Source of the DNA: an uncultured bacterium
GTDB lineage: Bacteria > CG03 > SLGR01 > JAGXOG01
Reading direction: 5' to 3'
Assembly (NCBI GenBank): GCA_964476445.1
Contig: CAYZAK010000001.1
Location: forward strand, 8,351 to 72,350
Length of the DNA stretch: 64,000 bases
In this document: piece by piece, positions 26,237 through 41,370 of the stretch
Numbering within the stretch: position 1 is the first letter of the stretch
Layout: every line of letters starts with the position of its first letter
Made by a program: the position numbers and the translations under genes
Notes under the pieces: model-generated
Databases searched by the model: none
Told to the model about the DNA's origin: nothing
What the model saw: the letters and a program-made list of their open reading frames with translations, nothing else

Positions 26237-26282
26237 AAATTTTCAGATTATTTAAATCCGGTAAAAGTACGGTGTTCCGGCG

Positions 26283-28508: not shown

Positions 28509-29924
28509 TTAAATCAACCCGAATACTCTGGCCACCGCATCACCGTAACCGGCCATATTCAAAGCTATTGGAACTAAAAGAACTGCCATACAGTGACTGC
28601 GCCGGCAACCGTAAAAAACCGGAATTAAACCTATGCTAGTTGTTATAAGGGATATGCCTATCCCCAGCCACCCCCCACCAACAAAAAATATTATTGAAAA
28701 TACAACGACCAGACCCACAATATAAATTAGCCTTAAATTTAACTTAGGCAATATTTTAACCATCCAGTTTACAATATATATAAGAAGTATAAAAGCCAGC
28801 GAACCGCTAAAAAGTATAGAGCTAATCATTACAAAAAAATCGCCTTTTTCAGCAGTAAATATGGGCCTTAAAATAAATGTTAACCCTCCCCGTCCGGTTC
28901 CAAATGGGGTAAGTTCGGTAAGAATAAATAAAAGTAAAAAAGCTCCGACATAGTATAAAAGTTTTATCATACCACCGGCTATCAGAAAAATTCTTTCCTG
29001 TCTGTAGTACATTTCTGGAGTATGCAGATGTTTATGTTCCTTTTCATTAATGGGATCTGTAAATTCCGCACGTTCTATATTTCGATGGTTGGTGACATGT
29101 CCGGCCCACATCGCTCCTATACCGGCAGTTACCGCCGGAAGATAAGCGGCCATCATCCCCCCTACAAAACCGGGTAATAAACCATATCCAAAATCTTCCC
29201 AGCCTGCACTAATATAATCATTATCATACTGTTTGGGTGGCTGGTAATTGGATATCAGGGCCTGTATTATAGAAGGTATGGCAAAAAAACCTATAAACAC
29301 CGGCATTATATTCTGAAAACTGGATTCCACCGGTAAAATTGGTTTGGTAAGAAAAATAAGGCCGAATATAGCGGCCAAGGTAAAGGTGGCCAGTCCGGCA
29401 AAACAGTTTCTCCAGGCCTCTTTAAACTTCTGCCAGGGAGTATCTCCCCGGCCCGCTCCTTTGGGCCACTCGCTCATCAAATAATGAATTATGACCAACC
29501 CCAGCACCCAGTGCAGGTGAGGGCCGGTAACTCTTGCTATATATGGCCACATATACCAAAAATAAGGATATAGAAGAGCTAAAAAAACTACTCCGACAAG
29601 CGTTCCCAACCCGGTTAAAAGACTGGCATCTTTTCCCCTACCCCGGGTAACCATATCGGTAGAAGGAAGCATAGATGCTCCTGCGGATTCATCAGCAGTA
29701 TTAAAAAAAGTCATGGGTACAGTATTTATAAAAGCAAAAGCAACCACCAGAGACATAAAAAAAGGAGCCAGAGCATAGTAAGGAATAATTCCCCTTATAC
29801 TTAACCAGGCAATCATGGCGATGCCTGCTACATTGTATATGTGGAGAGCGGGAATCGAACAAAAAAGCGCGCCCAGCAGGGTTCCCAAAATCACATATCC
29901 TATAATTACCGGGCCGACTTCCAT
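28509..29924 (-). CDS. Polytopic integral membrane protein (about 12 predicted TM helices; possibly TctA/DUF112-like)
   Basis: Hydrophobicity pattern with Gly/Pro-rich re-entrant-like motifs (GLLPGFVGGMMAAYLPAVTAGIGAMWAG); no catalytic motif recognised. Confidence 0.4.
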   Translation of the reverse strand: MEVGPVIIGYVILGTLLGALFCSIPALHIYNVAGIAMIAWLSIRGIIPYYALAPFFMSLVVAFAFINTVPMTFFNTADESAGASMLPSTDMVTRGRGKDASLLTGLGTLVGVVFLALLYPYFWYMWPYIARVTGPHLHWVLGLVIIHYLMSEWPKGAGRGDTPWQKFKEAWRNCFAGLATFTLAAIFGLIFLTKPILPVESSFQNIMPVFIGFFAIPSIIQALISNYQPPKQYDNDYISAGWEDFGYGLLPGFVGGMMAAYLPAVTAGIGAMWAGHVTNHRNIERAEFTDPINEKEHKHLHTPEMYYRQERIFLIAGGMIKLLYYVGAFLLLFILTELTPFGTGRGGLTFILRPIFTAEKGDFFVMISSILFSGSLAFILLIYIVNWMVKILPKLNLRLIYIVGLVVVFSIIFFVGGGWLGIGISLITTSIGLIPVFYGCRRSHCMAVLLVPIALNMAGYGDAVARVFGLI

Positions 29925-31111
29925 TATTGTATATTAAATTCAGAGGCTTCCAGCAGGTTCAGTTGTATATCCCCGTCAACCTCTGTAACCTTTACAGGCG
30001 CTTTTATTTTCTCCTGTCCCGAATCTAAATCGGAAAAATCTTCAATTTGTTCCCGCTGATCATAAGACACAAACATTGGAAACTCGGAATCAGAAAGCTC
30101 CAAATACGCTCCCTCTATCCCTAAACTTACCCGTTTCACGTCAGCCAGAACTATATATTTTTTGCCCTCATCAAGCAAAGAAATTTCCGACGACGGGATT
30201 TCATCTAAAGAATCGACATCTACTTTTTCTACTATTGTCACGGCTGTCTCATCCAAAAGCTGTATATTCTCCGGACGTCCGGACGGATCTACCAGATCAA
30301 TCTGGGGGTCGCCGCGAAATTCGCCTGCCCTAACTTTCATTCTGAACGGGGCGCCTTCCTGGGTAATAGCCTGTTTAATTTTATCCGGAAGAGCTTTAAA
30401 CTGACCGTCAAAAAGAACCATTTCTATACTACCAGAACCGTCATTAAAAGCTATTCTATGTAGAATCAAACCCTCCCGAGGCGAATCTTTGCTATAGTAT
30501 TCCACATCGGCTTCCACCCAGTAAATTTCCCCTTTATCAGCGGGAGTTATACTGATTATCGGCTGTTCTTTTATCTCATAGTTTTCCACCAAACGCATAC
30601 GGTCGGGGATAGATAAAAACATGGACACTCCCCAGGTCTGAGAAACATTAAGGGTACCTATAACATTAACAACATCTCTTAAGTCAGGCATGTCATCCCC
30701 GTGATATCTACGAAAATTATCCAGGTCATTTACTGCCCTGGCGTTTATCTGGCCGGTTCCGTCATCTATTGTCATACTAAAACTGTTTCTGTCCTCCTGA
30801 TACTCCACCTCCCTGACTTCACCTTCAATTTCAACCAGGGCGTTATTCATAGTTTCGGTAATATTGCCAATATTAACCCTGGGGGGCTTTTTCATATAGG
30901 CTGCCACCCATAAAAGTATCAGTCCTACAATAGAACATATAATGGCAAGTTTTTTAATAAGATTTATGGATATGCGTTTTTCGATCCTGGATCCGCATCT
31001 TACGCAGGTAGCTCCACTCCCGACATAGTACCCGCAAACAGGACAGTTACTTATTCCTTCAGAAGAATTTTCGGGATTTTGTTCTTTTATTTGTGTGTTT
31101 TTTTTAGACAT
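29924..31111 (-). CDS. Zinc-ribbon, single-TM protein with two extracytoplasmic OB-fold-like domains
   Basis: CPVCGYYVGSGATCVRCG zinc ribbon, TM LAIICSIVGLILLWVAAY, then two repeats resembling OB-fold cores (TIDDGTGQINARAV; FNDGSGSIEMVLFDG). Confidence 0.45.
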   Translation of the reverse strand: MSKKNTQIKEQNPENSSEGISNCPVCGYYVGSGATCVRCGSRIEKRISINLIKKLAIICSIVGLILLWVAAYMKKPPRVNIGNITETMNNALVEIEGEVREVEYQEDRNSFSMTIDDGTGQINARAVNDLDNFRRYHGDDMPDLRDVVNVIGTLNVSQTWGVSMFLSIPDRMRLVENYEIKEQPIISITPADKGEIYWVEADVEYYSKDSPREGLILHRIAFNDGSGSIEMVLFDGQFKALPDKIKQAITQEGAPFRMKVRAGEFRGDPQIDLVDPSGRPENIQLLDETAVTIVEKVDVDSLDEIPSSEISLLDEGKKYIVLADVKRVSLGIEGAYLELSDSEFPMFVSYDQREQIEDFSDLDSGQEKIKAPVKVTEVDGDIQLNLLEASEFNIQ

Positions 31112-31154: not shown

Positions 31155-31991
31155 TCAAAGGGCTTCTTCTATAGTTTCTTCCACAGCAGTAGACAGCCGC
31201 TGTACAATTAAATCCACCCGGCGGTTCATAGCTCTTTGTTCGGCTGTACGGTTAGCAGCCACCAGGTGTCTCTGAATAACTTCTTGCATCTCTCTTTGGA
31301 GACTCAACTGCCGATGCCGTATTTTTCTTATTACCATCTCTTCTTCTTCGGGAGTGCCGGCTTCAACAATTTCTTCGGAAAATTCGTGGGGGACATCTTT
31401 TACTCTCTGTTTATACCTGCTAATTTCCTCATTAAACTCTGTCTCTACCGCAGGATGGTATTTACTGTATCCTCCCGCCGATAGACGGCCCGGAGGAAAA
31501 TCCAGCTGTTCGGTAAGAAATCTAGTTATATTAGTAGCCCGGGTGGCCGAAAGTTCCCAGTTAGAGGCAAACTCCGCCGTTCTTATAGGAACACTGTCAG
31601 TATGCCCTTCCACTCTGATATCATTGGGGATATCTATTATCTCTTCGGAAATATCGGCCAGAATATCTTTTGCCTCTTCGTATATATCAGCTTTGCCGGA
31701 ATCAAACATAAGTTTTTCACTTAGACTTATTACCAACCCCCGGGTATCTATTTCCAGAACTATGACTTCTTCAAGCTGGTTTTGATCAGCGTAGGTTTCC
31801 AATCTTCTTTTTACCTGAAGTAACTGCATCTCGTTTAGAGTAGCAGCCAGGGCAAACATCATGACAAAAAATATTAAAAGCTGGGTTACTAAATCAGAGT
31901 ACGTGGTCATCCAGGGCGGGGACCCTTTACCTATCTCTATATCTTCATCCTCACCTTCTAAGAGAATATCATTTTCTTCATATTCGGCCAT
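31155..31991 (-). CDS. motB: Flagellar-type stator protein MotB (OmpA-like peptidoglycan-binding C-terminus)
   Basis: Conserved TM with proton-binding Asp: WMTTYSDLVTQLLIFFVMMFALA (cf. E. coli MotB YADFMT...); OmpA-like core RVEGHTDSVPI...NWELSATRA...NRRVDLIV. Confidence 0.82.
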   Translation of the reverse strand: MAEYEENDILLEGEDEDIEIGKGSPPWMTTYSDLVTQLLIFFVMMFALAATLNEMQLLQVKRRLETYADQNQLEEVIVLEIDTRGLVISLSEKLMFDSGKADIYEEAKDILADISEEIIDIPNDIRVEGHTDSVPIRTAEFASNWELSATRATNITRFLTEQLDFPPGRLSAGGYSKYHPAVETEFNEEISRYKQRVKDVPHEFSEEIVEAGTPEEEEMVIRKIRHRQLSLQREMQEVIQRHLVAANRTAEQRAMNRRVDLIVQRLSTAVEETIEEAL

Positions 31992-32878
31992 TATTTTTTC
32001 TTCTTGGATTTATACTTAAATTTTTTCTTTTTAGTCCTTTTATTGGTTCTTTTTGATTTTTTCTGTTTAGTTTTCTTACCCTTTTTATTTTTTTTCTTAT
32101 CTTTCTTACCGGTATTTTCTTTGTCCGTCGACCGGGGTAAATACGCCCTGAGTTTAGATACCGCAATAGAAGGTATTTCACCCGCCTGTAATGAAAGAAC
32201 CCCCCTTAAAATAACTTTTTTAATAAAAATTTCATCTTCCGACCGTCTTTTTAACTTACCGGCTATAGGCAAAAACAACAAATATGCAACCAGGGCTCCG
32301 TAAAACGTGGTAAGTAAAGCCACGGCCATTCCCGAAGCTATCTGAGCCTGATCCCTGAGATCGGCAAGCATCAATATCAACCCCATTATAGTACCTATCA
32401 TCCCAAAAGCAGGAGAATAAGTTCCTAGAGTCACAAAAATTTCCTGCCCGACCTTATGGCGTTCCCGGGTAAAAGCCAGCTCGGTCTCAAGTTCCTCCTT
32501 AATGAGCTCGTAGCTCTGACCGTCAACAACCATCTTCACACCGCTTTTTAAAAACTCGTTGTCCATACTTTTTATATCATTCTGAAGAGATAGAACACCT
32601 TTTTTAGAAGCTTTTACTATTAAGGCCCGGATGGTATCAATATATTTCTGGGGATCTTCCTGCTCCTCGGTAAAAACCTTTTTCACTATTTTAAAAGCTT
32701 TTAAAACCTGTTTAAGGGGATAAGTAACCATAAGAGCGGCAAAAGTTCCTCCGAAAGTTATTAGAGCCGAAGGTAAATCTATAAAACCCATTAGACCGCC
32801 CGCTCCACCTCGTTGAAAAACAGACATAACTACAAGGATTATCCCCCCGGACAATCCTATTATAGTGGTTAAATCCAT
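31991..32878 (-). CDS. motA: Flagellar-type stator protein MotA with ~45 aa poly-lysine C-terminal tail
   Basis: Four TM helices; TM3-TM4 signature GTIMGLILMLADLRDQAQIASGMAVALLTTFYGALVAYLLFLPIAGKLK close to MotA/PomA. The C-terminus ends with STDKENTGKKDKKKNKKGKKTKQKKSKRTNKRTKKKKFKYKSKKKK. Confidence 0.85.
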   Translation of the reverse strand: MDLTTIIGLSGGIILVVMSVFQRGGAGGLMGFIDLPSALITFGGTFAALMVTYPLKQVLKAFKIVKKVFTEEQEDPQKYIDTIRALIVKASKKGVLSLQNDIKSMDNEFLKSGVKMVVDGQSYELIKEELETELAFTRERHKVGQEIFVTLGTYSPAFGMIGTIMGLILMLADLRDQAQIASGMAVALLTTFYGALVAYLLFLPIAGKLKRRSEDEIFIKKVILRGVLSLQAGEIPSIAVSKLRAYLPRSTDKENTGKKDKKKNKKGKKTKQKKSKRTNKRTKKKKFKYKSKKKK

Positions 32879-32882
32879 AGAA

Positions 32883-33104
32883 TTATTCTTCTTCTTTTAA
32901 ATTGGAAAGTTCTTTCCAGGCTTCTGCGTTGATATTTTTACGGTACTCTTTAACTTTTTCTACAATTTCTTCAATTTTTTCTTTAACCATTAACCGGTTT
33001 CCGCTGGTAAGAGAGATATGAGTATCCGGATGGGCGGTAATTGTCTCTATTAATTCGGCATTTAAAACTATCCGGGTACCGTTCATTTTTGTCACAGTTA
33101 TCAT
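32883..33104 (-). CDS. flbD: FlbD-family flagellar protein
   Basis: MITVTKMNGTRIVLNAELIETI...TLTSGNRLMVKEKIEEIVEKV matches the short FlbD family encoded immediately upstream of motA in spirochaete and Firmicute flbD-motA-motB operons. Confidence 0.75.
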   Translation of the reverse strand: MITVTKMNGTRIVLNAELIETITAHPDTHISLTSGNRLMVKEKIEEIVEKVKEYRKNINAEAWKELSNLKEEE

Positions 33105-33106
33105 AA

Positions 33107-36100
33107 TTATAAAACTAAAATATCTTTAGATGAATTTTTCTTAAATTTATCAGTAATTTTTTTAAAGAAAGATTTCCGCTCTTCCTGAAGTTCACGTAAA
33201 AGACGGGCCTGGTTTTTCTCCAGTTCCTGTCTTTTCTTCTTCTCCTGTTCAGCTATTTGGGATAGCTGTTTCTGGTCTCTTAACATTATATCAAATTTTT
33301 TCTTTAAATTATCTCTTTCCTTAATAACTTTCTGAGTTTTATCTATGAAATTCTTGATTTTTTTCTCCCGATCATCCCATTTTTTCTGCCAATCCTGTTC
33401 CATTTTTTTCTTATCGGCTTTTGAAATCCGGTCGGAATTTTGTTTAGACATTTCCTCTAATCCTATTTCTAACTGAGCTTTAAGTTCCCGAATTCTGTCT
33501 TTTAAAGTGTTATTTTTCTGTTTAAGATTATTAACTGTAGTTTTATTCTGAGAATTCGAAACAGATTTTTCTTTTAGTTCCTTTAACTGTTTGTTTTTAA
33601 GCTCTATATCTTTTATAGCTTCTTCAAGTTCTCCTTTCAACTCGTTTATCATATTTACTTTTTGTTCCTGCTTTGCCAGAATTTTTTTGTTTTTTTCAAG
33701 TTTTTGGTTTAACTTTTTATTTTCCTGTTTTAAATTTTCCAGCTCCTGTTCATCCTCTTCAGAAGGTGTCCGGGAAAGATTTTCCTGTAAATTTTCTATC
33801 TTTAAAGTTTTCTCTTCCAACTCATTCTTTAAGTTTTCAATAACCTTACTTTTTTGGGTCAAATTTTCCTCAAGGTTTTCCTGCGCTTCAAGTTCTACGT
33901 TTAAATTTTCCACTCTGTTGGATAATTTTGCTATCCGTTCTTCTTTCTTTTTCAGTTCGTCATTATCAGGCCTGCTGGAAAGATTTTCCTGTAAATTTTC
34001 TATCTTTAAAGTTTTCTCTTCCAACTCATTCTTTAAGTTTTCAATAACCTTACTTTTTTGGGTCAAATTTCCCTCAAGGTTTTCCCGCTCTTCAAGTTCT
34101 ATGTTTAAATTTTCCACTCTGTTGGATAAGTTTGCTATCCGTTCTTCTTTCTTTTTCAGTTCGTCATTATCAGGCTGGGAGGCGATTTTTTCTTCCAAGT
34201 TTTTGATTTTTTGTTCTTTTTTTTCAAGTTCTTCTTTTTCAGGATTATGTATTAATTTCTTTTCTAAATTTTTAATACGGTCTTTCTGATTTCCTATAAT
34301 TTTTTCTTTATCAACTACATCGGTTTTTAAAGTTTCTATCTTTTCTGCTTTAGCCGTAATTTCATCTTTTAAATTATTGGCTTCACTCTGGTCTATTTTA
34401 TACCTCATTTCTGAGGTTAAATCCTTTATTTTAGAATCTTTTTTTTCAATCTCTTTTAAAATCTGGTTGATCTCTTCTTGATGAGAGGCCTCTTTTTGGG
34501 AAAGTCGCTGTTCTAATTTTTCTATACGCTCTTCTTTATCTTTTAAATCGTTTTTTACCCTTTTAAATTTTTCTGTTATATCTGACAGTTCTCTTTCCCG
34601 ATTTTCTGATATTTGGTTGTTTTTATGGAAATTCTCAACATATTCCTCGGTCTTTTGTTTGAACCGGTTAAAATTATATTTTAAATTATCCAGTTCCTTG
34701 TTTTTATATTCAAGCTCTCTGTTTAATTTATTATTTTCTTCCTCTAATTGTTCCAGCTCTAATCTAAAATCCTTTTTTCTTTCTTCGTATTTATCAGCTG
34801 AATCCCATTTTTCCTCCACCTTGTGCAACAGATCCTGATAATTATTTTTAAGCCGGTCTATTTCATTTCTAAGCTTATCTTCTCGCTTTTCAAGTTCAAA
34901 TTTAATAACCTTGTTTTCTTCTATCTTTTTATCATATTTATTTTTCCACATTTCTATTTCCTCCCTAGCGGTTTTAAGCTCTTCCCGAGCTGACGCAAAT
35001 TTAGCTCTGTGTTCTAAGAGCTTGCTTTCCTGAGTTTCTAATTTTTGATTAAGTTCAACAATCTTGTTTCTGGCATTATTTAAATTCTGTTTAAGTATAT
35101 TTTTTTGTTTATATATATGACTTTTGAGATCTTTTATTTCGGATTTATAATCTTCTATTTTTTGGGCGTGTCTTTTTTCCTGTTCATTTAATTTTAATTT
35201 TAATTCCTCTTTTTCAGAGGTTCTTTGTCTTTTAATATCTCTTACCCGGCTTTGAAGACTTGAAATTTCATCTTTTAACTCTTCTTCTTTTTCCTGATAA
35301 TTAAGACGGAGTTCCTCCTTCTGTTTATCCCATTCCTCTTTAAGCCACCGGGTATTTCTTTTATAATCTTCGAATTCTCTTTTTAAACTCCGTATTCTTT
35401 GATCCTTACGGTTTCTTAATTCTCTTACAGTATTCCGGGATTCTTCAAGCTGGTTATTAAGTAACTCTAATTGCCGGTTATAATCCTCTTCGTTTTTATT
35501 AAGTTTTTCCCGTTCTTCGCGTCTTATTTCTCTAATTTTACTCTCTATTTCAAAAGCTGCGTCTTCTTTTTCCTTAATTACACCGGACAATTTTTCCTTC
35601 ATCTCTTTATTTGTACGGTTTAGATTATGATTTTCATCGTCAAATTCCTGTAAATCTGTTTTTAACTGTTCATTTTTCTTTTTAAGATTACGGTTCTGCC
35701 TTATATTATTTTCCAGTTCTTCTTCTAAATTTTCAATCTTTTGGGCTGTTTTACGGTGTATTTTTTCTTTCTCTTCTTTTAGAGTTTCCACTTTATTTTT
35801 CTGAGTTTCATAACTTTGTCTTAAACTGTTCATTTTTTCTTCATATTCATCTTCTATTTTGGTTTTTATTTTTTCATAATTTACTTTTTTTGTTTTTATA
35901 TTTTCTAACGCTCGGCTGTGAAGTTCTTCTTTAGCGGAAATCTGCTGTTCATATTTTTGCTGAATATTCTTAAACTTTTCTGCCAAATTAGCCTTGCTGT
36001 TCTCTAAATCTTTAATTTGGGATTGGTAATCTTTAATTTTATTACTATATTCTCGTTCCAAAGTTCTAATTTTATCTTCATTCTGTTCATTAATATTTCT

Positions 36101-37426
36101 TATTTTTTCAGTCCAACGGCGGTGGTGAGTATTTAATTTAGATTCTAGATTATTAATTTTTTCATTATAAACGTCCCGCTGAGATTCATATTTACTCTGT
36201 TTGGACTTTATCTGATCAGTGAGTCTATTTATCTTGTTTTTATATCTTCTATCTAATAAATCCTTTTCTTTATTTAAACTGTTAATCTTATTTGTGTACT
36301 CTACCTTTTCCTGTTCGTACTTTTGTTTAATATTTTCATACTTATGTATAGCATCTTCTTTATTTTGAACTTCTCGGGTGAGTTTTTCCTTGTAATTATA
36401 TTTAAGTTTGCTTATCTTCTGCTGAAATTCAGAGACCGCTTTTTCCTTCTCGTTTATATTGTCCCTTAATCTTTCTTCCCACAGTTCGCTTTTATTATTA
36501 AATTTCTGCTGAATTTTCCACAGTTCTCTATTAGTTTCGTCGTTGTTTTTTTGAAGTTCATAAATCTTATTTTTTAAATTATGCCGAACTTCTTTAAGCC
36601 TGTTTTGATAGTCAAGTTTTAAATTATCTCTTAAATTTTCACTTCTTTGAAGTTTTTTACTCCATTCTGTTCTCTTCTCTATAAGTTTCTTTTCCATCTC
36701 CCGCAGTTGCTCCCGGAGTTGTTGTTTCTCTTCACGGGTCTGGTCAAATTTTTTATTTAACGCCGTACTCTGTAAAACTTCCTTTAATGACTGTTCAACT
36801 TTAACGGCATTTTTTTCTTCTTCTTTATATTTTATTCTTTCTTCGTAAGCTCTTTTTTTTGCTTTTTCAAGCTCCTCTTTTAATTCCTTAACTTGTTCCT
36901 GAACCTGGTTTTGAGCTTCCCTGTATGCCTCCTGACGGATCTGATTCTGGGTTTTTTCTTTAGCTATCTTAGCTTTATTTTCTTTACGTATCTTTTCTAA
37001 AGTTTCCTGCCATTTTTTTCTTTCTTCGGCAAGTTCCTGCTCTCTTTTTTTATATTCTTCCTCCAGACTCTTTTTAAGATTAGCCAATTCTCTCTGTCTA
37101 TGGCGAGTCTGTTCTTTTTCTTTCTTGAGAAATTTTTCCTGAAGTTCTAAATTTTCTTCCTCAGTTTCTTTAAGACGGTTCATTAATTCTTCTCTTTCTT
37201 TTACCATCCGACCTTCTATATCTTGAATTTTATTTTTGGCTTCTTCGGCTTTTTGAGACTTTTGTTTTTTCTGTTTATCTTTTTCAGACGGGGGTCCCGG
37301 CGGGAGGGTCGGACCCTGGCCGAAATTGCTGGAGCTGGAGCTGCTATTTTTACCGGGGCCGGGTACCGGAGGAGTTCCCGGCGTCGGATCAGGTAAATTA
37401 GGAAATTTTGAGTTTTTGTTTTTCAT
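33107..37426 (-). CDS. Giant (1439 aa) Lys/Glu-rich coiled-coil protein with Pro-rich N-terminus and internal 68-aa tandem repeat
   Basis: N-terminal PNLPDPTPGTPPVPGPG...SSSSSS low-complexity, then >1300 aa of continuous heptad K/E/L/N/Q sequence. Residues ~1085-1225 contain two near-identical 68-aa units (SQPDNDELKKKEERIANLSNRVENLN...KIENLQENLS). Confidence 0.7.
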   Translation of the reverse strand: MKNKNSKFPNLPDPTPGTPPVPGPGKNSSSSSSNFGQGPTLPPGPPSEKDKQKKQKSQKAEEAKNKIQDIEGRMVKEREELMNRLKETEEENLELQEKFLKKEKEQTRHRQRELANLKKSLEEEYKKREQELAEERKKWQETLEKIRKENKAKIAKEKTQNQIRQEAYREAQNQVQEQVKELKEELEKAKKRAYEERIKYKEEEKNAVKVEQSLKEVLQSTALNKKFDQTREEKQQLREQLREMEKKLIEKRTEWSKKLQRSENLRDNLKLDYQNRLKEVRHNLKNKIYELQKNNDETNRELWKIQQKFNNKSELWEERLRDNINEKEKAVSEFQQKISKLKYNYKEKLTREVQNKEDAIHKYENIKQKYEQEKVEYTNKINSLNKEKDLLDRRYKNKINRLTDQIKSKQSKYESQRDVYNEKINNLESKLNTHHRRWTEKIRNINEQNEDKIRTLEREYSNKIKDYQSQIKDLENSKANLAEKFKNIQQKYEQQISAKEELHSRALENIKTKKVNYEKIKTKIEDEYEEKMNSLRQSYETQKNKVETLKEEKEKIHRKTAQKIENLEEELENNIRQNRNLKKKNEQLKTDLQEFDDENHNLNRTNKEMKEKLSGVIKEKEDAAFEIESKIREIRREEREKLNKNEEDYNRQLELLNNQLEESRNTVRELRNRKDQRIRSLKREFEDYKRNTRWLKEEWDKQKEELRLNYQEKEEELKDEISSLQSRVRDIKRQRTSEKEELKLKLNEQEKRHAQKIEDYKSEIKDLKSHIYKQKNILKQNLNNARNKIVELNQKLETQESKLLEHRAKFASAREELKTAREEIEMWKNKYDKKIEENKVIKFELEKREDKLRNEIDRLKNNYQDLLHKVEEKWDSADKYEERKKDFRLELEQLEEENNKLNRELEYKNKELDNLKYNFNRFKQKTEEYVENFHKNNQISENRERELSDITEKFKRVKNDLKDKEERIEKLEQRLSQKEASHQEEINQILKEIEKKDSKIKDLTSEMRYKIDQSEANNLKDEITAKAEKIETLKTDVVDKEKIIGNQKDRIKNLEKKLIHNPEKEELEKKEQKIKNLEEKIASQPDNDELKKKEERIANLSNRVENLNIELEERENLEGNLTQKSKVIENLKNELEEKTLKIENLQENLSSRPDNDELKKKEERIAKLSNRVENLNVELEAQENLEENLTQKSKVIENLKNELEEKTLKIENLQENLSRTPSEEDEQELENLKQENKKLNQKLEKNKKILAKQEQKVNMINELKGELEEAIKDIELKNKQLKELKEKSVSNSQNKTTVNNLKQKNNTLKDRIRELKAQLEIGLEEMSKQNSDRISKADKKKMEQDWQKKWDDREKKIKNFIDKTQKVIKERDNLKKKFDIMLRDQKQLSQIAEQEKKKRQELEKNQARLLRELQEERKSFFKKITDKFKKNSSKDILVL
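33770..34177. repeat. Two tandem near-identical 204-bp direct repeats inside the coiled-coil gene
   Basis: Unit ggaaagattttcctgtaaattttctatctttaaagttttctcttccaactcattctttaagttttcaataacc... at 33773 recurs at 33977 (offset 204) with only a handful of substitutions, ending ...ttcagttcgtcattatcagg at 33970 and 34174. Confidence 0.9.
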
Positions 37427-37542
37427 AAGATTATCAAGTACTAATGTAAAATTTGATTTTTTTCAAGTTTTAAATTTTATTTTACAGTTTTATATTATTA
37501 TATCCTTATTTTTCTATTGCCATTTTCATTGTATTTATATTC

Positions 37543-39495
37543 TTAATGAACTTCTACCCATTCTTTTAATTCCTGATTATCCGGATTTAACTGCAGGGAT
37601 TTTTTATAAGAAGCTTTAGCTTTACTTTCCTCCCCCATAGCTAAATAACAGGAGCCCATATATTGATGGGTCTGCCATATATCAGGGTTGTACTGTAAAG
37701 ATTGCTGGAATTGCTGCACGGCCTGGCTGTAATTTTCGTTCTTATAGGCTTCCAGACCCTTTTCATAAAACTTAAAAGCTATTTCATCGTTATTGGTCTC
37801 TTCTTTTGGCGGACTTTCCATATTTTCTTTTTCTTCAATTGCTTCTTTGGCCGCATTTATTATGTTCTCAAGAACGGACTCTTTCTCTTCTTCTCCAAGT
37901 TCTTCTTCCCAAAGCTCCGCAGTTCCTTCCCCTGTTACACCCGTTATAGTACCGTCCGCTTCCAATTCTTTTATTTTGGCTACAATACCACGCTGACTGT
38001 TTTTTATCTGCTCTCCAGTCACATTACGACCGTATTCAATCTCTTCTTTTAATAAAGCTGCCGCTCCTTCACTCATGTTTTCCATAAACCTCTCCCTGAA
38101 CTCTTCAGAAGTATTTTTAAGGGCAACTCCCAGATCTTTGGTTTCTACTTCCTGGATAATCATCTGTATAGCCGCATCATCCAGATTCATTATATCTTCA
38201 AAACTAAAAATTTGACTTTCAACTTTCTGAGAAAATTCAGGATCTTCTCTGGAAATAGACTCAAGTATCTGATCTCTCTCAGTTTCGCCCATCACCTCCA
38301 GCATACCTACCAGCTTGTCCGCTCCACCGGACACATATTCTATCTTTTGGCTTAAAAATTCATCCACGTGCTCCATAATCTCTTTTGAAGTGCATTGCAT
38401 ACTCACTATCTTTTTAGCAATTTCCGCTTTATTCTCTTCCGGTAAAGCGGCTAACACTTTTGCCGCTTTCGGCGCATCTAAATAATCTATTAACAGTGCC
38501 GCCACAGACGGCTTTTCAAAATTCAAAAGATAGGCCAGTTTTTTTAAATCTTTATTCTCCAAAAACTTTAAAGGTTTATAGGTCATTTTTTCAAACTCCT
38601 CCTCTTCGGTCTCTTCTTGTGTTTCCCCTTCTATATATTCTCCGTCTTCAATTTCTTCTTCCGGTTTTTCTTCATCAAATTCTTCCTCCAGTTCTTCTTC
38701 CATTTCCATTTCAGTTTCCCCGGCCCCCATACCGGCACCTATGCCGCCACCGCCGGCCGTGGCACCGGTAAATTCTGTTTCGGATTTCATCTTTTTTAAA
38801 TCTTTTAAAGTCTGAAGAGTAGCAAAAAGAAATTTACGGAGAGGACCGAACAGAAAAAGGCCAATTATACCCAAGGTAATTAAGCCCAGGACGATTACAT
38901 AAAAATAAGGATTAAATAAAAACCCTACAAAATCAATAGTTCTCCCGGCAAAATCCACCCGCTGAATAGTAAGCCTGTCTCCCCGGGCCGGATTTATATC
39001 AAGAACATCGGTTAGTACATTTTCAATAGTTAGTACGGTTTCATCAGGTATTCCCCGGTCCAGTATTAAACTGACCTGAATACTAGCCAGAAATTCAGAA
39101 GGCAGAGTAATTACATCTTCTATTCTTTTTGCCCCGCCGGTACCTCTTTCGGCATCCTGATCTTCGGGCTGTTCCTCTAACTGTTGTCTTCTTAACGGAA
39201 CTCCGGGAAGGTACTCTTCTACTTCAGGGGAGTACGGCTGATCTTCTTCTCTTTCTTCGGACCACTGCTCGGTCTGAGTTCTGGATTTTTCCAGATCGGC
39301 CAGCTCAACGCTGACAATGACCGATGATTTTCCCTCCCCTACAATTCTTTCCACTATACCGCTTAAATGGGTTTCCAGGCGCTGTTCAGTTTCCATCTTC
39401 TGATTTATCAGGGTAGTATAATCAGAGAATTCAGCTTGGCCCATAAAAAGGGGTACTGCCAACAGTACTGCCAGTTTTTTTAGTATATTTTTCAT
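37543..39495 (-). CDS. Membrane-anchored FliF-like ring-building-motif / FliG (middle + C-terminal domains) / TPR fusion protein
   Basis: Residues ~35-185 contain two FliF/YscJ-like RBM blocks: RLETHLSGIVERIVGEGKSSVIVSVELAD and SIQVSLILDRGIPDETVLTIENVLTDVLDINPARGDRLTIQRVD (cf. FliF ASVTVTLEPGRALDEGQISAVVHLVSSAVAGLPPGNVTLVDQSG). TM at ~187-218; acidic/Gly-rich linker. Residues ~305-525 align with the FliG M and C domains: ILESISREDPEFSQKVESQIFSFEDIMNLDDAAIQMIIQEVETKDLGVALKNTSEEFRERFMENMSEGAAALLKEEIEY versus T. maritima ILESLEEEDPELAEEIRKKMFVFEDILKLDDRSIQLVLREVDTRDLALALKGASDELKEKIFKNMSKRAAALLKDELEY. The C-terminal ~85 aa form TPR repeats. Stop overlaps the upstream FadL-like gene start (ATGA). 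Confidence 0.7.
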   Translation of the reverse strand: MKNILKKLAVLLAVPLFMGQAEFSDYTTLINQKMETEQRLETHLSGIVERIVGEGKSSVIVSVELADLEKSRTQTEQWSEEREEDQPYSPEVEEYLPGVPLRRQQLEEQPEDQDAERGTGGAKRIEDVITLPSEFLASIQVSLILDRGIPDETVLTIENVLTDVLDINPARGDRLTIQRVDFAGRTIDFVGFLFNPYFYVIVLGLITLGIIGLFLFGPLRKFLFATLQTLKDLKKMKSETEFTGATAGGGGIGAGMGAGETEMEMEEELEEEFDEEKPEEEIEDGEYIEGETQEETEEEEFEKMTYKPLKFLENKDLKKLAYLLNFEKPSVAALLIDYLDAPKAAKVLAALPEENKAEIAKKIVSMQCTSKEIMEHVDEFLSQKIEYVSGGADKLVGMLEVMGETERDQILESISREDPEFSQKVESQIFSFEDIMNLDDAAIQMIIQEVETKDLGVALKNTSEEFRERFMENMSEGAAALLKEEIEYGRNVTGEQIKNSQRGIVAKIKELEADGTITGVTGEGTAELWEEELGEEEKESVLENIINAAKEAIEEKENMESPPKEETNNDEIAFKFYEKGLEAYKNENYSQAVQQFQQSLQYNPDIWQTHQYMGSCYLAMGEESKAKASYKKSLQLNPDNQELKEWVEVH

Positions 39496-41090
39496 TCCAT
39501 TAAATCCTCTATTTCAAATTCTTCACTGTCTCTATCCACCGGCCGGCGAACCTGATTAATAAAATTCCTCAGATCATCATCGGCCGGATTAAGCTGCAGA
39601 GATCTTTCCCAGGCCTCCACAGCTCTCTCTTCGTTGCCTATAGAGTAAAAAGACGAGCCAATTCTTTTGTACGCCTGGGCGTTTTCGGGCTCAATAACCA
39701 GCACTTCCTGGTATTCTTCAATGGCCTGGGCATAATCCTCGTTGTAAAAATGCTGAAGTCCCTTATGTAATTTGTACTCGGCCAGGGACATTCCCGAAAC
39801 AACTCTTATCCGGGGATCTGCTAAATTTTCCTTTTCCCCTATCCATCTTAAAAGCTCTTTAGCCTGTTCATCAGTGGGATCTTCAGTAATTATGTGATTT
39901 AAAGCCAGTACTATGATATCAACATTATCATTTTCTATGTACTCCCTTATACCTCTTCTTAAAAGAGAACCCGATCGGGTATCCTCCACTTTACGGGGAA
40001 TCCATTCTGCTATATCGGATAAAATATCCCTTTTTCTGGATACTTCACGGTCAAAAGGATTTAAACTGTAAGCTTTTTCAAAACTTTTCAAGGCATCGTC
40101 ATAAAGACCTTCCCGGTAAGCCACATCACCTTCCGTTTTATATTCCCGGGCGGACCTTTCCTTTATTTCCTTAACAGAACGTCCGAAACTTATAGTGGCC
40201 GATAGCCTGTGCGAGCCACCTAAATCATGGGCCGCATAGGCATAATCCACTCCGTAATCATCATATTCAATTCCAAAACCCAGGTTTAATTCCTGGGGAT
40301 CTATACCCATCCTGAGAGCCAGATAATCCAGAGCCCAGAACTCCATCCCTATATTGTAAGGAAGTCCGCTATCCCAGCCTATGGCAGTACTTATATCCGC
40401 ACCCAGGGACAACCGGTCCCTTAATAACTTGTAATTCACTCCCAAACGGGCCATTATGGGTAATTCATCGGAAGTATTGTAGGATTCGGAAAGTAAATTC
40501 TGCATATTCAATCCCACTCTTAAATCCTCTATGGGGGTATATATTCCCCCAATATCTAAAATATAACTGCCGCTTTTATGATTATCAAGGGTATGGCTCA
40601 TTTTTTTAAAGGTTCCTCCAACTGCCAGCTCTTCTAAAATTCTCTGGCCGTAAGATAAACCGTAAGCACTCTGAATATCCTCAAATGTATGGGTAACTCT
40701 ATTTTTGGCATCTCTTCCTTCAAATCCTCCCATAAAAAGCCGAGTTCCCGAAAACCCGAAAGTTCCCCCGAACTCGGTGGGCTGAACATAACTTACAAAA
40801 TCATATACCGACCCTCCCCATAAAACTGAATGAAGAGCAGTTAATTCACTCCGGTGAAGGTCAGCCAGTCCGGCTGGATTCCAGTAAGTAGCCGAAGCAT
40901 CGTCGGCCAGGGCAACAAAAGCTTTTCCCATGCCCAGAGACCGGGCTCCCGCTCCCCAGGACATAAAAGCACCGGGCATACCCCCACGACCGCTCTTACG
41001 AGCCCAGTTTAAAGTAAACTGGCCCAGCGAAATTATATAAGCCAGAACAATTAATACCAAGACTGATTTTTTTATCAATTTATATATCAT
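39492..41090 (-). CDS. FadL/PorV-like outer-membrane beta-barrel protein with ~230 aa C-terminal TPR extension
   Basis: Signal peptide MIYKLIKKSVLVLIVLAYIISLG (start set at ATG 41090); hatch-domain motif ARSLGMGKAFVALADDASATYWNPAGLADL matching FadL [27 protein letters not shown]; alternating amphipathic strands; C-terminal TPR repeats (YKLHKGLQHFYNEDYAQAIEEYQEVLVIEPENAQAYKRIGSSFYSIGNEERAVEAWERSLQLNP). Confidence 0.6.
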   Translation of the reverse strand: MIYKLIKKSVLVLIVLAYIISLGQFTLNWARKSGRGGMPGAFMSWGAGARSLGMGKAFVALADDASATYWNPAGLADLHRSELTALHSVLWGGSVYDFVSYVQPTEFGGTFGFSGTRLFMGGFEGRDAKNRVTHTFEDIQSAYGLSYGQRILEELAVGGTFKKMSHTLDNHKSGSYILDIGGIYTPIEDLRVGLNMQNLLSESYNTSDELPIMARLGVNYKLLRDRLSLGADISTAIGWDSGLPYNIGMEFWALDYLALRMGIDPQELNLGFGIEYDDYGVDYAYAAHDLGGSHRLSATISFGRSVKEIKERSAREYKTEGDVAYREGLYDDALKSFEKAYSLNPFDREVSRKRDILSDIAEWIPRKVEDTRSGSLLRRGIREYIENDNVDIIVLALNHIITEDPTDEQAKELLRWIGEKENLADPRIRVVSGMSLAEYKLHKGLQHFYNEDYAQAIEEYQEVLVIEPENAQAYKRIGSSFYSIGNEERAVEAWERSLQLNPADDDLRNFINQVRRPVDRDSEEFEIEDLME

Positions 41091-41112
41091 ATCATTTGTA
41101 CAAAAAAAATAC

Positions 41113-41149
41113 CGATTTACCTTTATAAACATGATAAAGGCAAATCGGC
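41113..41149 (-). terminator. Intrinsic terminator-like hairpin between the two FadL-like genes
   Basis: Minus-strand RNA gccgatttgcctttat-catgttt-ataaaggtaaatcggt (15-bp stem, 1 G-U) followed by AUUUUUUUUG. Lies 22 nt upstream of the ATG at 41090 and ~220 nt downstream of the stop of the 41371-42444 gene. Confidence 0.55.
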
Positions 41150-41370
41150 AATTCCAATACATCAACCTGTATTGACTTCCAATTCAACCTACTGGCAATT
41201 CAGCCTTCCTTAACTTTACCAGGAACTGTAATTTTGCGTTACGACGGTTACCCACCGGTTGCCTTTATCAGTAGTTTTTCAATATTCTATTTTCTTTTCC
41301 TATTAAATTAATAACACGAAATCCGGTTTTTTTCAAGGAATTCATTAATGTACCGGTAACTTTCCGTTAT

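What the first reader, a model, noticed from the sequence alone, without database searches (positions are those of the whole stretch)
31991..32150. MotA ends in an unusual ~45-residue poly-lysine tail; motB start overlaps its stop
After the canonical MotA C-terminal cytoplasmic helix (…SKLRAYLPRST) the ORF continues as DKENTGKKDKKKNKKGKKTKQKKSKRTNKRTKKKKFKYKSKKKK before the stop that overlaps the motB ATG. Such a highly basic tail is not a feature of characterised MotA/PomA proteins. It could mediate binding to the very acidic partners in this locus. The FliG-like protein carries a run of ~40 Glu/Asp just before its FliG domain, MotB has an acidic N-terminus EYEENDILLEGEDEDIE, and the PorV-like linkers are acidic. 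It could also bind nucleic acid or membrane. Alternatively it may be a homopolymer-associated sequencing artefact, since the coding strand here is an A-rich tract.
Basis: seen in the sequence. Interest (0 to 1): 0.5.

Follow-up and report, generated by a model that had tools for sequence, protein, structure and literature searches.

The report
Lysine-rich tail on a stator protein
The ion-driven motor protein MotA in this uncultured Elusimicrobiota genome really does end in a long, floppy, strongly positive tail, which is shared by its closest relatives and probably helps hold the motor unit to a matching negatively charged stretch of its partner protein or to the membrane.

Summary
motA (31991-32878, minus strand, 295 aa) ends in a 44-residue tail with 25 Lys and 2 Arg. 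Its TAA stop overlaps the motB ATG by one base.

Two other assemblies hold the same DNA. All 26 closest homologues (70-78% identity, Elusimicrobiota MAGs, 35-51% GC) carry a basic tail of 35-56 aa, and most end in a motif like KKVKFK.

AlphaFold2 models the MotA core confidently and the tail as disordered. Solved MotA/PomA structures stop matching at residue 248. More distant MotA proteins have short, nearly neutral tails.

The gene sits in a conserved cassette without other flagellar genes: a PorV-like barrel with TPR, a membrane-anchored FliG-like protein, a giant coiled coil, FlbD, MotA and MotB. The FliG-like protein's linker next to the membrane is the most acidic segment in the window. 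The MotA tail is the most basic. Both traits appear in the same clade.

The acidic MotB N-terminus is not conserved. The PorV-like protein is modelled outside the cytoplasm, so the tail could not reach it.

Best reading, with confidence 0.4: an electrostatic tether between stator and rotor-like protein. Binding to anionic membrane lipids is the main rival. This is a new variant of a known kind, of moderate interest.

The parts
32126..32878 (-). MotA core, residues 1-251: a PomA/MotP-type stator A subunit with four TM helices and a cytoplasmic torque domain.
   Evidence: Pfam MotA_ExbB at 8.8e-31. Aligns to solved MotA/PomA chains over residues 1-248, with E down to 1e-49. AF2 pLDDT is above 90 over most of the core. 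E. coli P173 and P222 equivalents are kept; R90 is S and E98 is Q.
31994..32125 (-). Polybasic C-terminal tail of MotA, residues 252-295: 25 K and 2 R in 44 aa, net +24.
   Evidence: Searches give the sequence. AF2 pLDDT is below 50 for residues 252-284. A basic tail of 35-56 aa is present in all 24 distinct tail sequences of the clade. Tail-coding GC ranges from 28 to 57% across orthologues, with K replaced by R in the GC-richer ones.
31994..32032 (-). Terminal motif KKKKFKYKSKKKK, alternating basic and hydrophobic residues. The clade consensus is roughly [KR][KR]x[VIM]K[FY][KR].
   Evidence: 20 of 24 distinct clade tails have [VIMF][KR][FYM][KRS] within the last 24 residues, and two more have near variants (AKFK, KYKYK).
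31991..31993 (-). motA stop codon TAA, sharing one base with the motB ATG (TAATG).
   Evidence: Relatives show the same or a similar junction (shared coordinate, adjacent, or a 4-nt overlap) in L003, L011-L014 and L121.
31155..31991 (-). motB, 278 aa, with plug and OmpA-like domains. The acidic N-terminus MAEYEENDILLEGEDEDIE lies at 31932-31991.
   Evidence: Pfam MotB_plug and OmpA. The N-terminal acidity is specific to this genome and a few relatives: net -9 here, +2 in L001 and L012.
32883..33104 (-). flbD, 73 aa, immediately upstream of motA.
   Evidence: Pfam FlbD at 7.9e-25. Present in every tail-clade locus and most related loci, though several (e.g. L007, L018) lack it.
33107..37426 (-). 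1439-aa Glu/Lys-rich coiled-coil protein with a Pro-rich N-terminus.
   Evidence: No Pfam hit. A counterpart of 522-1655 aa sits in the same position in the related loci examined for it (L001, L012, L015, L018, L019, L039, L041, L055, L058); L007 has none there. Charges are mixed, with no segment beyond +8 or -7 in 44 aa.
37543..39495 (-). FliG-like protein, 650 aa: signal or anchor sequence, weak FliF_C-like domain, TM helix, acidic linker, FliG_M, FliG_C and TPR.
   Evidence: Pfam FliG_C at 1.6e-30, FliG_M at 6.7e-17, TPR, and weak YscJ_FliF_C. TIGR00207 fliG scores 154 bits against a cut-off of 226.7 and matches only model positions 110-332. E. coli K264 and D288/D289 equivalents are kept (as K and EE); R281 is G and R297 is T.
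38584..38847 (-). Juxtamembrane linker of the FliG-like protein, residues 217-304: Gly-rich then poly-acidic, net -22, containing ETEMEMEEELEEE. This is the proposed partner of the MotA tail.
   Evidence: It holds the most acidic 44-aa segment of the window, -26, and the next is -18. All 10 tail-clade loci have linkers of -9 to -28. Most tail-less relatives have 0 to -4.
39492..41165 (-). PorV/PorQ-family outer-membrane barrel fused to TPR repeats; the first gene of the conserved cassette.
   Evidence: NCBIfam NF033709 PorV_fam at 120.6 bits, above its cut-off of 90. Pfam UPF0164 plus TPR. Conserved upstream of the FliG-like gene in related loci.

Best explanation
The tail is a genuine, clade-specific, intrinsically disordered polycationic extension on a PomA/MotP-type MotA. 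It has three parts: a short segment just after the core, a variable Lys/Arg-rich spacer, and a conserved terminal motif of alternating basic and hydrophobic residues (KKVKFK-like).

The C-terminal helix of Vibrio PomA lies parallel to the membrane at the rim of the pentamer. By homology, five such tails per MotA5B2 unit would fringe the stator at the cytoplasmic face of the inner membrane.

I propose that the tails act as an electrostatic tether. They would capture the poly-acidic linker just below the membrane in the FliG-like rotor protein encoded three genes upstream. That linker is anchored at the same membrane face and appeared in the same clade. The tether would concentrate and hold stator units at the FliG-like ring. 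It may compensate for canonical salt-bridge residues missing in this lineage (MotA R90 is S and E98 is Q; FliG R281 is G and R297 is T). Free stators may instead rest their tails on anionic lipids.

Shown here: the tail is real, conserved and predicted disordered, it co-occurs with the acidic linker, and the two segments share a compartment. Inferred: the physical contact and its effect on stator recruitment.
For: Real and translated:
- Identical DNA in the ENA and Logan assemblies.
- 26 homologues at 70-78% identity all carry a tail.
- The basic character persists from 35 to 51% locus GC, with K-to-R replacement.
- AAG codons break up A runs. No run exceeds 8 A in 11 orthologues, and a pooled permutation test gives P=0.005.

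Beyond the known fold and disordered:
- PDB MotA/PomA matches end at about residue 248.
- AF2 gives pLDDT below 50 for residues 252-284.

Geometry: the PomA C-terminal helix runs parallel to the membrane and contacts the interface helix of the neighbouring subunit. PomA C-terminal regions vary in length among stator types (PMC10374538).

Partner:
- The FliG-like linker is the most acidic segment of the window and the tail the most basic.
- The linker is -9 to -28 in all 10 tail-clade loci and 0 to -4 in most tail-less loci. Pearson r = -0.82 over 19 pairs.
- On a tree of MotA cores, a second lineage, L019, pairs an intermediate tail (+7) with an acidic linker (-12). Its sister group has neither.
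- The linker carries an alternating acidic/hydrophobic motif (GEMEMEEE-like) that mirrors the alternating basic/hydrophobic end of the tail.

Rewired interface: the R90/D288-D289 and E98/R281 pairs are the documented stator-rotor contacts (PMC12505986). In this system they are partly lost.
Against: - The co-occurrence rests on one clade plus one intermediate lineage, so on only one or two independent events.
- Within the tail clade, tail charge and linker charge do not correlate (r = -0.34, n = 9, not significant).
- L058 has an acidic linker (-9) with a tail of only +4.
- Tail charge is not uniformly high in the clade. P0025 is +1 and P0024 is +6, while the terminal motif is better kept. A specific docking site, rather than bulk charge, may therefore be what matters.
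- A MotA in a canonical flagellar operon (P0234, locus L125) has a moderately Lys-rich tail ending KKKLFKIKERL. No membrane-anchored FliG-like gene lies on its 5-kb contig.
Confidence: 0.4

Rival explanations
1. The tail binds the membrane. It would lie on the cytoplasmic leaflet by attraction to anionic lipids (phosphatidylglycerol, cardiolipin), with the conserved Val/Phe/Tyr of the terminal motif inserting at the interface, as in polybasic domains such as the MARCKS effector domain. This could stabilise the stator's cytoplasmic rim, recruit anionic lipids around the channel, or place stators in lipid domains.
For: - The terminal KKKKFKYKSKKKK combines a basic cluster with aromatic residues.
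- By homology with PomA, the C-terminus lies at the membrane surface.
- Electrostatic membrane binding by disordered polybasic segments is well documented (PMC10771482).
- A similar K-rich tail with KKLFKIK occurs in a MotA from an ordinary flagellar operon, which suggests a generic target.
- The hydrophobic/basic motif is better conserved than net charge.
Against: - This does not explain why the tail arises in the same clade as the strongly acidic FliG-like linker.
- MotA is already an integral membrane protein, so no anchoring is needed.
- Tails stuck to the bilayer would add drag to a MotA pentamer that is thought to rotate around MotB.
- Nothing here tests lipid binding, and the lipid composition of these organisms is unknown.
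Confidence: 0.3
2. The tail is a tolerated low-complexity spacer with no specific partner. The MotA C-terminus is free and variable in length, and A-rich codon expansion in AT-leaning genomes inflated a pre-existing basic tail. This genome is simply the extreme case.
For: - PomA/MotA C-terminal regions vary in length and sequence.
- Tail sequences in the clade diverge quickly, and net charge ranges from +1 to +24.
- The window has the highest K+R fraction, 0.59 against 0.24-0.51.
- Moderately K-rich tails recur in other MotA lineages, including one on a 33% GC contig.
- The last Lys codons also form the A-rich leader of motB, like other gene starts in this genome.
Against: - All 26 relatives keep a tail within a narrow length range of 35-56 aa.
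- A terminal motif is conserved in 20-22 of 24 distinct tails.
- Positive charge is maintained by Arg where GC is higher; the L122 tail is 57% GC with 10 K and 8 R.
- The window's locus GC (41%) is not the lowest in the clade.
- AAG placement limits A runs.
Confidence: 0.15
3. The tail pairs with the acidic cytoplasmic N-terminus of MotB inside the same stator unit, for example as an autoinhibitory or assembly contact.
For: - MotB here starts MAEYEENDILLEGEDEDIE, net -9 over 26 aa.
- Tail-clade MotBs have a slightly more acidic [DE]-I-[EQ]-[IV]-G motif than the E-I-K-[IV]-G of the sister clade.
- Both segments are cytoplasmic and belong to one complex.
Against: - N-terminal charge in tail-clade MotBs runs from -9 to +2. 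L001 and L012 are +2, and L013 and L014 are +1.
- There are two MotB N-termini for five tails.
Confidence: 0.05
4. The tail binds another polyanion in the cytoplasm, such as nucleic acid, ribosomes or polyphosphate.
For: Only the composition: a +24 disordered segment binds any polyanion in vitro (inference).
Against: - No nucleic-acid-related genes or domains lie in the cassette.
- The tail is fixed at the membrane next to a motor partner.
- The conserved terminal hydrophobic/basic motif is not explained.
Confidence: 0.05
5. The tail is an artefact: a homopolymer indel in the A-rich tract shifted the frame, and the true MotA ends near residue 250.
For: - The coding strand is A-rich. The tail is 28% GC with one A8 run.
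- A second frame is also open across the region, the 67-aa ORF at 31978-32181.
Against: - Zero differences over motA (888 bp) in both the ENA and the Logan assemblies, and over all 2,888 bp of the ENA locus.
- The annotated frame yields the clade-conserved terminal motif.
- The tail joins the core without a break.
- 26 homologues with different DNA encode the same kind of tail and the same stop/start junction with motB.
Confidence: 0.01

Closest known systems
PomA / MotP / MotA stator A subunits of the flagellar motor (5:2 MotA5B2 rotary units; e.g. PDB 8bri, 6ysf, 6ysl, 6ykm)
   Same: - Full-length core homology, with E = 1e-49 to 1e-27 against solved chains over residues 1-248.
- Pfam MotA_ExbB.
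- E. coli P173 and P222 equivalents conserved.
- The partner MotB has plug and OmpA-like domains.
- motA and motB are coupled by overlap, and flbD lies upstream as in many flagellar operons.
   Different: - Carries a 44-aa polybasic disordered tail that no solved or characterised homologue has.
- Scores below every NCBIfam equivalog cut-off; the best is MotP at 246 bits against 394.
- R90 is S and E98 is Q.
- No other flagellar structural genes in the 64-kb window.
- The neighbouring FliG is a membrane-anchored fusion without an N domain.
C-terminal helix (CH motif, K246-D253) of Vibrio PomA
   Same: It occupies the position directly after the last core helix. It shows that the MotA/PomA C-terminus matters: truncation abolishes motility. 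It lies at the membrane surface on the stator rim (PMC10374538).
   Different: - The CH motif is eight residues, helical, and docks on a neighbouring subunit.
- The tail here is about five times longer, disordered and polycationic.
- This genome even lacks the [ST]A[FY][MV]E segment that its relatives have at the CH position.
Polybasic, aromatic-containing membrane-binding segments (MARCKS effector-domain type)
   Same: A disordered cluster of Lys with interspersed Phe/Tyr, located next to an anionic membrane leaflet.
   Different: Those are eukaryotic peripheral proteins controlled by phosphorylation. This is the end of a bacterial integral membrane motor protein. Lipid binding was not tested. 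The resemblance in sequence pattern is from my own knowledge of the MARCKS sequence.
ZorA of the Zorya anti-phage system (a MotA-like protein with a long C-terminal tail)
   Same: A 5:2-type MotA relative whose C-terminus carries a long lineage-specific extension thought to convey a signal from the motor. The description of ZorA's tail is from my own knowledge.
   Different: The MotA here has no PADLOC match at all. Only MotB gives generic ZorB/MotB hits. The ZorA tail is a long folded coiled coil, not a short polybasic disordered segment.
Orphan motAB-flbD-fliG genes of non-flagellated Elusimicrobiota
   Same: The same gene set in the same phylum. Uzun et al. report that most free-living Elusimicrobiota lack flagellar structural genes yet carry motAB, flbD and fliG homologues of unclear role (bioRxiv 10.1101/2022.07.08.499144).
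   Different: In the passages I read, that report does not describe the tail, the FliG fusion architecture, the PorV-like/TPR gene or the coiled-coil gene.

Membership tests
Flagellar-type stator A subunit (MotA/PomA/MotP) | MotA_ExbB channel domain with four TM helices and a large cytoplasmic torque-generating domain between TM2 and TM3 | tested here: met
   Pfam PF01618 at 8.8e-31, with MotA_N just below its cut-off. Aligns end to end with solved MotA/PomA chains. The AF2 model has pLDDT above 90 with long TM3/TM4 helices.
Flagellar-type stator A subunit (MotA/PomA/MotP) | Reaches a curated equivalog score for MotA, PomA or MotP | tested here: not met
   NCBIfam best scores are MotP 246.5 bits (cut-off 394), PomA 234 (341) and MotA 206 (340). 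All are far above ExbB/TolQ at 19.7 bits.
Flagellar-type stator A subunit (MotA/PomA/MotP) | Conserved prolines P173 and P222 (E. coli numbering) | tested here: met
   Both are conserved in the window protein and all relatives aligned with E. coli MotA.
Flagellar-type stator A subunit (MotA/PomA/MotP) | Charged residues R90 and E98 that pair with FliG D288/D289 and R281 | tested here: not met
   R90 is S and E98 is Q in the window; R90 is S in every tail-clade sequence examined, and E98 is Q in most of them. The neighbouring Lys (K91 position) is kept. More distant relatives keep R/K and E. The pairs are defined in PMC12505986.
Flagellar-type stator A subunit (MotA/PomA/MotP) | Partner B subunit with plug, a TM helix carrying the conserved Asp, and a peptidoglycan-binding OmpA-like domain, encoded directly downstream | tested here: met
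   Pfam MotB_plug at 1e-11 and OmpA at 6.8e-15. The TM segment reads ...WMTTYSDLVTQLL with an Asp; I equate this with E. coli D32 from my own knowledge of MotB, not from an alignment. motB starts at the motA stop.
Flagellar-type stator A subunit (MotA/PomA/MotP) | Works in a flagellum, i.e. is encoded with or alongside flagellar structural genes | tested here: inconclusive
   Only flbD and a non-canonical FliG-like gene are nearby. No FliF, FliM/N, export apparatus, rod, hook or flagellin genes lie in 64 kb. The rest of the genome was not available. The literature reports that most free-living Elusimicrobiota lack flagella.
FliG (the proposed partner) | Three domains: N (binds FliF), M and C (torque helix) | tested here: not met
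   Only the M and C domains match (Pfam). TIGR00207 matches model positions 110-332 at 154 bits, below the cut-off of 226.7. The N domain is replaced by a signal or anchor sequence, a FliF_C-like region, a TM helix and the acidic linker. A TPR domain is added at the C-terminus.
FliG (the proposed partner) | Torque-helix charged residues K264, R281, D288, D289 and R297 | tested here: not met
   K264 is kept, D288/D289 are kept as EE, R281 is G and R297 is T. The pattern is similar in all 18 FliG-like proteins aligned: the R281 and R297 arginines are replaced in every one and the acidic pair is kept in all but one.
Zorya ZorA | Match to ZorA profiles and a long C-terminal coiled-coil tail | tested here: not met
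   No PADLOC family matches the MotA. The tail is 44 aa and predicted disordered.
ExbB / TolQ | Match to ExbB or TolQ equivalogs, with a condensed cytoplasmic domain | tested here: not met
   19.7 bits against cut-offs of 206 and 221.
Polybasic membrane-binding segment (functional class, not a homologous family) | Disordered cluster of about 10 or more basic residues with interspersed aromatic or hydrophobic residues, next to an anionic leaflet | tested here: met
   27 basic residues with F287 and Y289. Predicted disordered. Membrane-proximal position inferred from PomA.
Polybasic membrane-binding segment (functional class, not a homologous family) | Demonstrated binding to anionic lipid bilayers | not testable with these tools
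   Needs liposome binding assays or molecular dynamics.

The most novel reading that the evidence does not exclude
The Lys-rich MotA tail and the Glu-rich FliG-like linker form a disordered polycation/polyanion clasp. The clasp docks flagellar-type stator units onto a membrane-anchored FliF-FliG fusion ring. That ring belongs to a previously undescribed non-flagellar rotary machine of Elusimicrobiota, made of a PorV-like barrel with TPR, a giant coiled coil and giant FG-GAP/Ig surface proteins, which moves or secretes surface adhesins. Stator recruitment by bulk charge rather than by the canonical R90/E98 salt bridges would be a new solution to stator-rotor coupling.
Probability: 0.2. Interest if true: 0.75.

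Novelty: new variant of a known kind. Interest (0 to 1): 0.42.

Why it matters
How stator units find and stay on their rotor is a central question for ion-driven 5:2 motors. In flagella the answer is a few conserved salt bridges plus peptidoglycan anchoring.

In this lineage those salt-bridge residues are partly gone. Instead, the stator and its FliG-like partner carry opposite, extreme charge tracts tethered to the same membrane face. If the tracts pair, this is a simple, testable case of motor assembly driven by disordered polyelectrolytes. It would also give a handle, through tail truncation or charge reversal, on a motor cassette whose function is unknown in a phylum with almost no cultured, motile members.

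If the tail only binds lipid or is neutral, the finding is a minor lineage-specific decoration.

Tried and rejected
- **Artefact or frameshift:** rejected. The DNA is identical in two other assemblies, and the frame and motif are conserved in orthologues.
- **MotB acidic N-terminus as the conserved partner:** rejected as a general mechanism. Its charge ranges from -9 to +2 within the clade.
- **PorV-like acidic linkers as partner:** rejected on topology, since it is an outer-membrane PorV/PorQ-family protein, and on weak acidity.
- **Giant coiled-coil protein as partner:** it has no acidic tract, at most -7 in 44 aa, and it is also present in tail-less relatives.
- **Zorya, ExbB or TolQ membership:** no support.
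- **Metagenome scan with the MotA alignment:** it returned 80 loci but no further tail-clade members. These loci served only as tail-less comparators.
- **Quantitative charge matching within the tail clade:** not significant, r = -0.34 with n = 9.
- **A-run avoidance in this gene alone:** not significant (P of about 0.08 to 0.2). Pooled over 11 orthologues it gives P = 0.005, but the orthologues are related.
- **Literature searches for lysine-rich MotA tails:** nothing relevant found.
- **Raw reads:** they could not be inspected.
Full report
**1. The observation**

The minus-strand ORF at 31991-32878 encodes a 295-aa MotA. After ...SKLRAYLPRST it ends in DKENTGKKDKKKNKKGKKTKQKKSKRTNKRTKKKKFKYKSKKKK. 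These 44 residues lie at 31994-32125 and hold 25 Lys, 2 Arg and 3 acidic residues.

The TAA stop (31991-31993) shares its last base with the ATG of motB (31155-31991), giving TAATG. Overlap of motA and motB is ordinary; the E. coli genes overlap by 4 nt.

The charge is far outside chance:
- At net +24 the tail is the most basic 44-aa segment in 20,382 residues of window ORFs. The next is +15.
- In 150 representatives of the MotA family (clusters at 50% identity), the last 40 residues average +1.0 with SD 3.4 and a maximum of +11.

**2. Not an artefact**

- The exact protein is on record from three sources. The ENA and Logan loci show no differences from the window over motA, and the ENA locus none over its full 2,888 bp.
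- The 26 nearest homologues (70-78% identity, 284-305 aa, named Elusimicrobiota where named) all extend 35-56 residues past the conserved ...KL[KR]AY[ILV]P[RK].
- Their DNA differs. Locus GC runs from 35 to 51% and tail-coding GC from 28 to 57%. Lys is replaced by Arg in the GC-richer genomes, for example 10 K and 8 R in L122, and 7 K and 11 R in L011.
- No A run exceeds 8 in any of 11 orthologues. AAG codons are placed so as to shorten A runs. The sum of longest runs is 74, against 85 ± 4.4 after permuting the Lys codons (P = 0.005, though the orthologues are related).
- A second frame is open across the tract (ORF 31978-32181), but only as a by-product of the A-rich sequence. The annotated frame is the one that yields the conserved motifs.

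**3. What the tail looks like**

- Solved MotA/PomA chains (C. sporogenes, B. subtilis, Vibrio, Aquifex, C. jejuni) align with residues 1-248 at E-values down to 1e-49, and nothing in them matches the tail.
- AlphaFold2, run with a 61-sequence alignment, gives pLDDT above 90 for most of the core, below 50 for residues 252-284 and about 51 for the last ten residues. The tail is therefore predicted to be disordered.
- Across the 24 distinct tails of the clade, the sequence drifts quickly. Net charge ranges from +1 to +24 with a mean of +12.6, and the window is the extreme.
- Two elements recur:
  - [ST]A[FY][MV]E sits directly after the core. The window lacks it and reads STDKEN.
  - A terminal alternating motif, [VIMF][KR][FYM][KRS], appears in 20 of 24 tails, typically as KKVKFK. 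Here it is KKKKFKYK.
- The next group of homologues (about 61% identity) has 17-20-residue tails of net +3 to +6. About 110 further MotA genes in fetched loci have tails of 4-42 aa with net charge -8 to +7.

**4. Context**

The gene lies in a conserved cassette, listed here in order of transcription:

| Gene | Coordinates | Notes |
|---|---|---|
| PorV/PorQ-family barrel fused to TPR | 39492-41165 | passes the NCBIfam cut-off |
| FliG-like protein, 650 aa | 37543-39495 | signal or anchor sequence, weak FliF_C-like region, TM helix, acidic linker, FliG_M, FliG_C, TPR |
| Glu/Lys coiled-coil protein, 1439 aa | 33107-37426 | Pro-rich N-terminus |
| flbD | 32883-33104 | |
| motA | 31991-32878 | |
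| motB | 31155-31991 | |

Upstream lie giant FG-GAP/Ig-type proteins of 1915 aa and at least 5255 aa. The rest of the window holds a Bat-like MoxR/VWA operon and housekeeping genes, with no flagellar structural genes.

The same cassette occurs in every tail-clade locus with enough flank (L001, L003, L010, L012-L014, L121, L122, L124). It also occurs, in shorter or variant form, in tail-less Elusimicrobiota relatives (L007, L015, L018, L019, L039-L041, L055, L058, L067).

A preprint on Elusimicrobiota notes that most free-living members lack flagellar structural genes but carry motAB, flbD and fliG homologues of unclear role (10.1101/2022.07.08.499144).

**5. Candidate partners**

*FliG-like linker.*
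The linker between the TM helix and the M domain (residues 217-304) has net charge -22.
- It contains the most acidic 44-aa segment of the window at -26. The next is -18.
- All 10 tail-clade loci have such a linker, at -9 to -28, with a recurring GE-x-E-[MF]-[ED]-[FIMV]-EEE segment.
- Most tail-less relatives have 0 to -4.
- Over 19 non-redundant pairs, Pearson r = -0.82. Inside the tail clade r = -0.34, which is not significant.
- On a neighbour-joining tree of MotA cores the tail clade is monophyletic. Its sister group splits into L019 (tail +7, linker -12) and the L015 group (tail +4, linker 0 to -4). The evidence therefore amounts to one or two coupled changes.

*MotB.* Its N-terminus is acidic here (-9) but ranges up to +2 in tail-clade relatives. 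It is not a conserved partner.

*PorV-like protein.* It is an outer-membrane family member and only mildly acidic. The cytoplasmic tail cannot reach it.

*Coiled-coil protein.* It has mixed charges and is present whether or not MotA has a tail.

**6. Geometry and the canonical interface**

In Vibrio PomA, the last eight residues form a helix that runs parallel to the membrane and docks on the interface helix of the neighbouring subunit. Truncating it abolishes motility. C-terminal regions vary among stator types (PMC10374538). By homology, the tail here starts at the cytoplasmic membrane surface on the rim of the pentamer. The FliG-like acidic linker is anchored at that same surface.

The documented stator-rotor charge pairs are MotA R90 with FliG D288/D289, and MotA E98 with FliG R281 (PMC12505986). 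Aligned with the E. coli proteins:
- Every tail-clade MotA examined has Ser at R90, and most have Gln at E98.
- Every FliG-like protein of the cassette lacks the R281 and R297 arginines. K264 is kept (as K or R) in all, and the acidic pair in all but one.

The classical interface is thus partly dismantled in the lineage that gained the opposite-charge tracts.

**7. Interpretation**

I commit, at 0.4, to an electrostatic tether. Five disordered polycationic tails per stator unit capture the polyanionic linkers of the FliG-like ring. This raises the local concentration of stators at the ring and lengthens their stay there. The alternating basic/hydrophobic end possibly zips onto the alternating acidic/hydrophobic segment of the linker.

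The main rival, at 0.3, is binding to anionic lipids. It is favoured by:
- the Lys-plus-aromatic pattern;
- the membrane-proximal origin of the tail;
- the finding that a MotA from a normal flagellar operon (P0234, locus L125, 33% GC) also ends in a moderately Lys-rich tail with KKKLFKIKERL.

The two readings are compatible if free stators park their tails on the membrane.

A neutral low-complexity spacer (0.15) is disfavoured by the conserved length range, the terminal motif and the K-to-R replacement. The variable charge and the extreme Lys content of this one genome show that drift does contribute.

Binding therefore remains inferred.

**8. Classification and verdict**

The protein works like, and is homologous to, flagellar-type stator A subunits. 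However, it falls below all curated equivalog cut-offs, lacks R90 and E98, and sits in a cassette without other flagellar genes. It is not a ZorA, ExbB or TolQ.

The tail is a new variant on a known kind of protein. It is real, conserved in one Elusimicrobiota clade and disordered, and it has a plausible but untested partner. Its interest is moderate. The surrounding cassette may be the larger story.

Noticed in passing
window 31155-41165 (-) plus 42441-63992 (-); loci L001, L003, L007, L012-L015, L018, L019, L039-L041, L055, L058, L067, L121, L122, L124: A conserved Elusimicrobiota cassette: a PorV/PorQ-family barrel with TPR, a membrane-anchored FliF_C-like/FliG_M+C/TPR fusion, a 500-1650-aa Glu/Lys coiled coil with a Pro-rich N-terminus, FlbD in most loci, MotA and MotB. 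It often lies next to giant FG-GAP/Ig proteins (1915 aa and at least 5255 aa here; up to 16,455 aa called in L001). It looks like a non-flagellar machine built from flagellar motor parts. The one paper found that covers these genes (10.1101/2022.07.08.499144) mentions them only as orphan motAB/flbD/fliG.
   Followed up: partly
window 32590-32611 (MotA residues 90-96 region) and 38500-38700 (FliG_C torque helix): The canonical stator-rotor charge pairs are partly lost. MotA R90 is Ser in all tail-clade proteins and E98 is Gln in most. In the FliG-like proteins of the whole cassette family, R281 is Gly/Ala/Glu and R297 is replaced by Thr, Ser, Gln or Gly, while K264 and the acidic pair are kept in nearly all.
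   Followed up: yes
window 31155-31420 (-), C-terminal third of MotB: MotB is 276-286 aa in the tail clade but 217-227 aa in the sister clade. The extra ~60 residues follow the OmpA-like domain (Pfam match ends at residue 192) and are rich in Glu, Arg and Gln.
   Followed up: no
L125 (Logan SRR32546281 contig, 33% GC), MotA at 2922-3767: A MotA in a canonical FlgD / rod-hook protein / FlbD / MotA / MotB operon has a moderately Lys-rich tail ending KKKLFKIKERL (+10 over the last 40 aa). This may be convergent with the KKVKFK motif of the Elusimicrobiota clade.
   Followed up: partly
window 31978-32181 (-): A 67-aa ORF in a second frame runs across the tail-coding tract. It is open only because the sequence is A-rich and has no support as a gene.
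   Followed up: yes
window 31992-32016 and 32879-32903: The last Lys codons of motA (AAGAAGAAAAAATA before the ATG) double as the purine-rich leader of motB. motA itself has a similar AAAGAAGAAGAA leader. Many genes in the window have A-rich leaders without a clear Shine-Dalgarno sequence, so the final KKKK may be partly shaped by motB translation initiation.
   Followed up: partly
window 25358-25489 (-), C-terminus of the DUF58 protein: This is the second most basic segment in the window, +15 over the last 44 aa (...KLRKLNRRRSKNFKKMK...FKRRFKKR). It lies on the DUF58/VWA protein of a Bat-like operon.
   Followed up: no
window 19892-27266 (-): A Bat-like aerotolerance-type operon directly downstream of the region: MoxR AAA_3 ATPase, DUF58, an unannotated 272-aa protein, BatA-like VWA, a second VWA, TPR, and a BatD-domain protein.
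   Followed up: no
window 28509-31111 (-) versus L001, L003, L122-L124 downstream of motB: In five tail-clade relatives (L001, L003, L122-L124) motB is followed by a Wzy_C (O-antigen ligase-like) plus TPR protein, and in four of them by trp genes. In the window it is followed by a zinc-ribbon/OB-fold protein, a TctA-family membrane protein and a YdjM-like protein. Synteny therefore breaks right after motB.
   Followed up: no
window 13592-15534 (-): A PilT/PilB-type T2SSE ATPase lies next to a cyclic-nucleotide-binding-domain protein. They are the only other motility- or secretion-type genes in the window.
   Followed up: no
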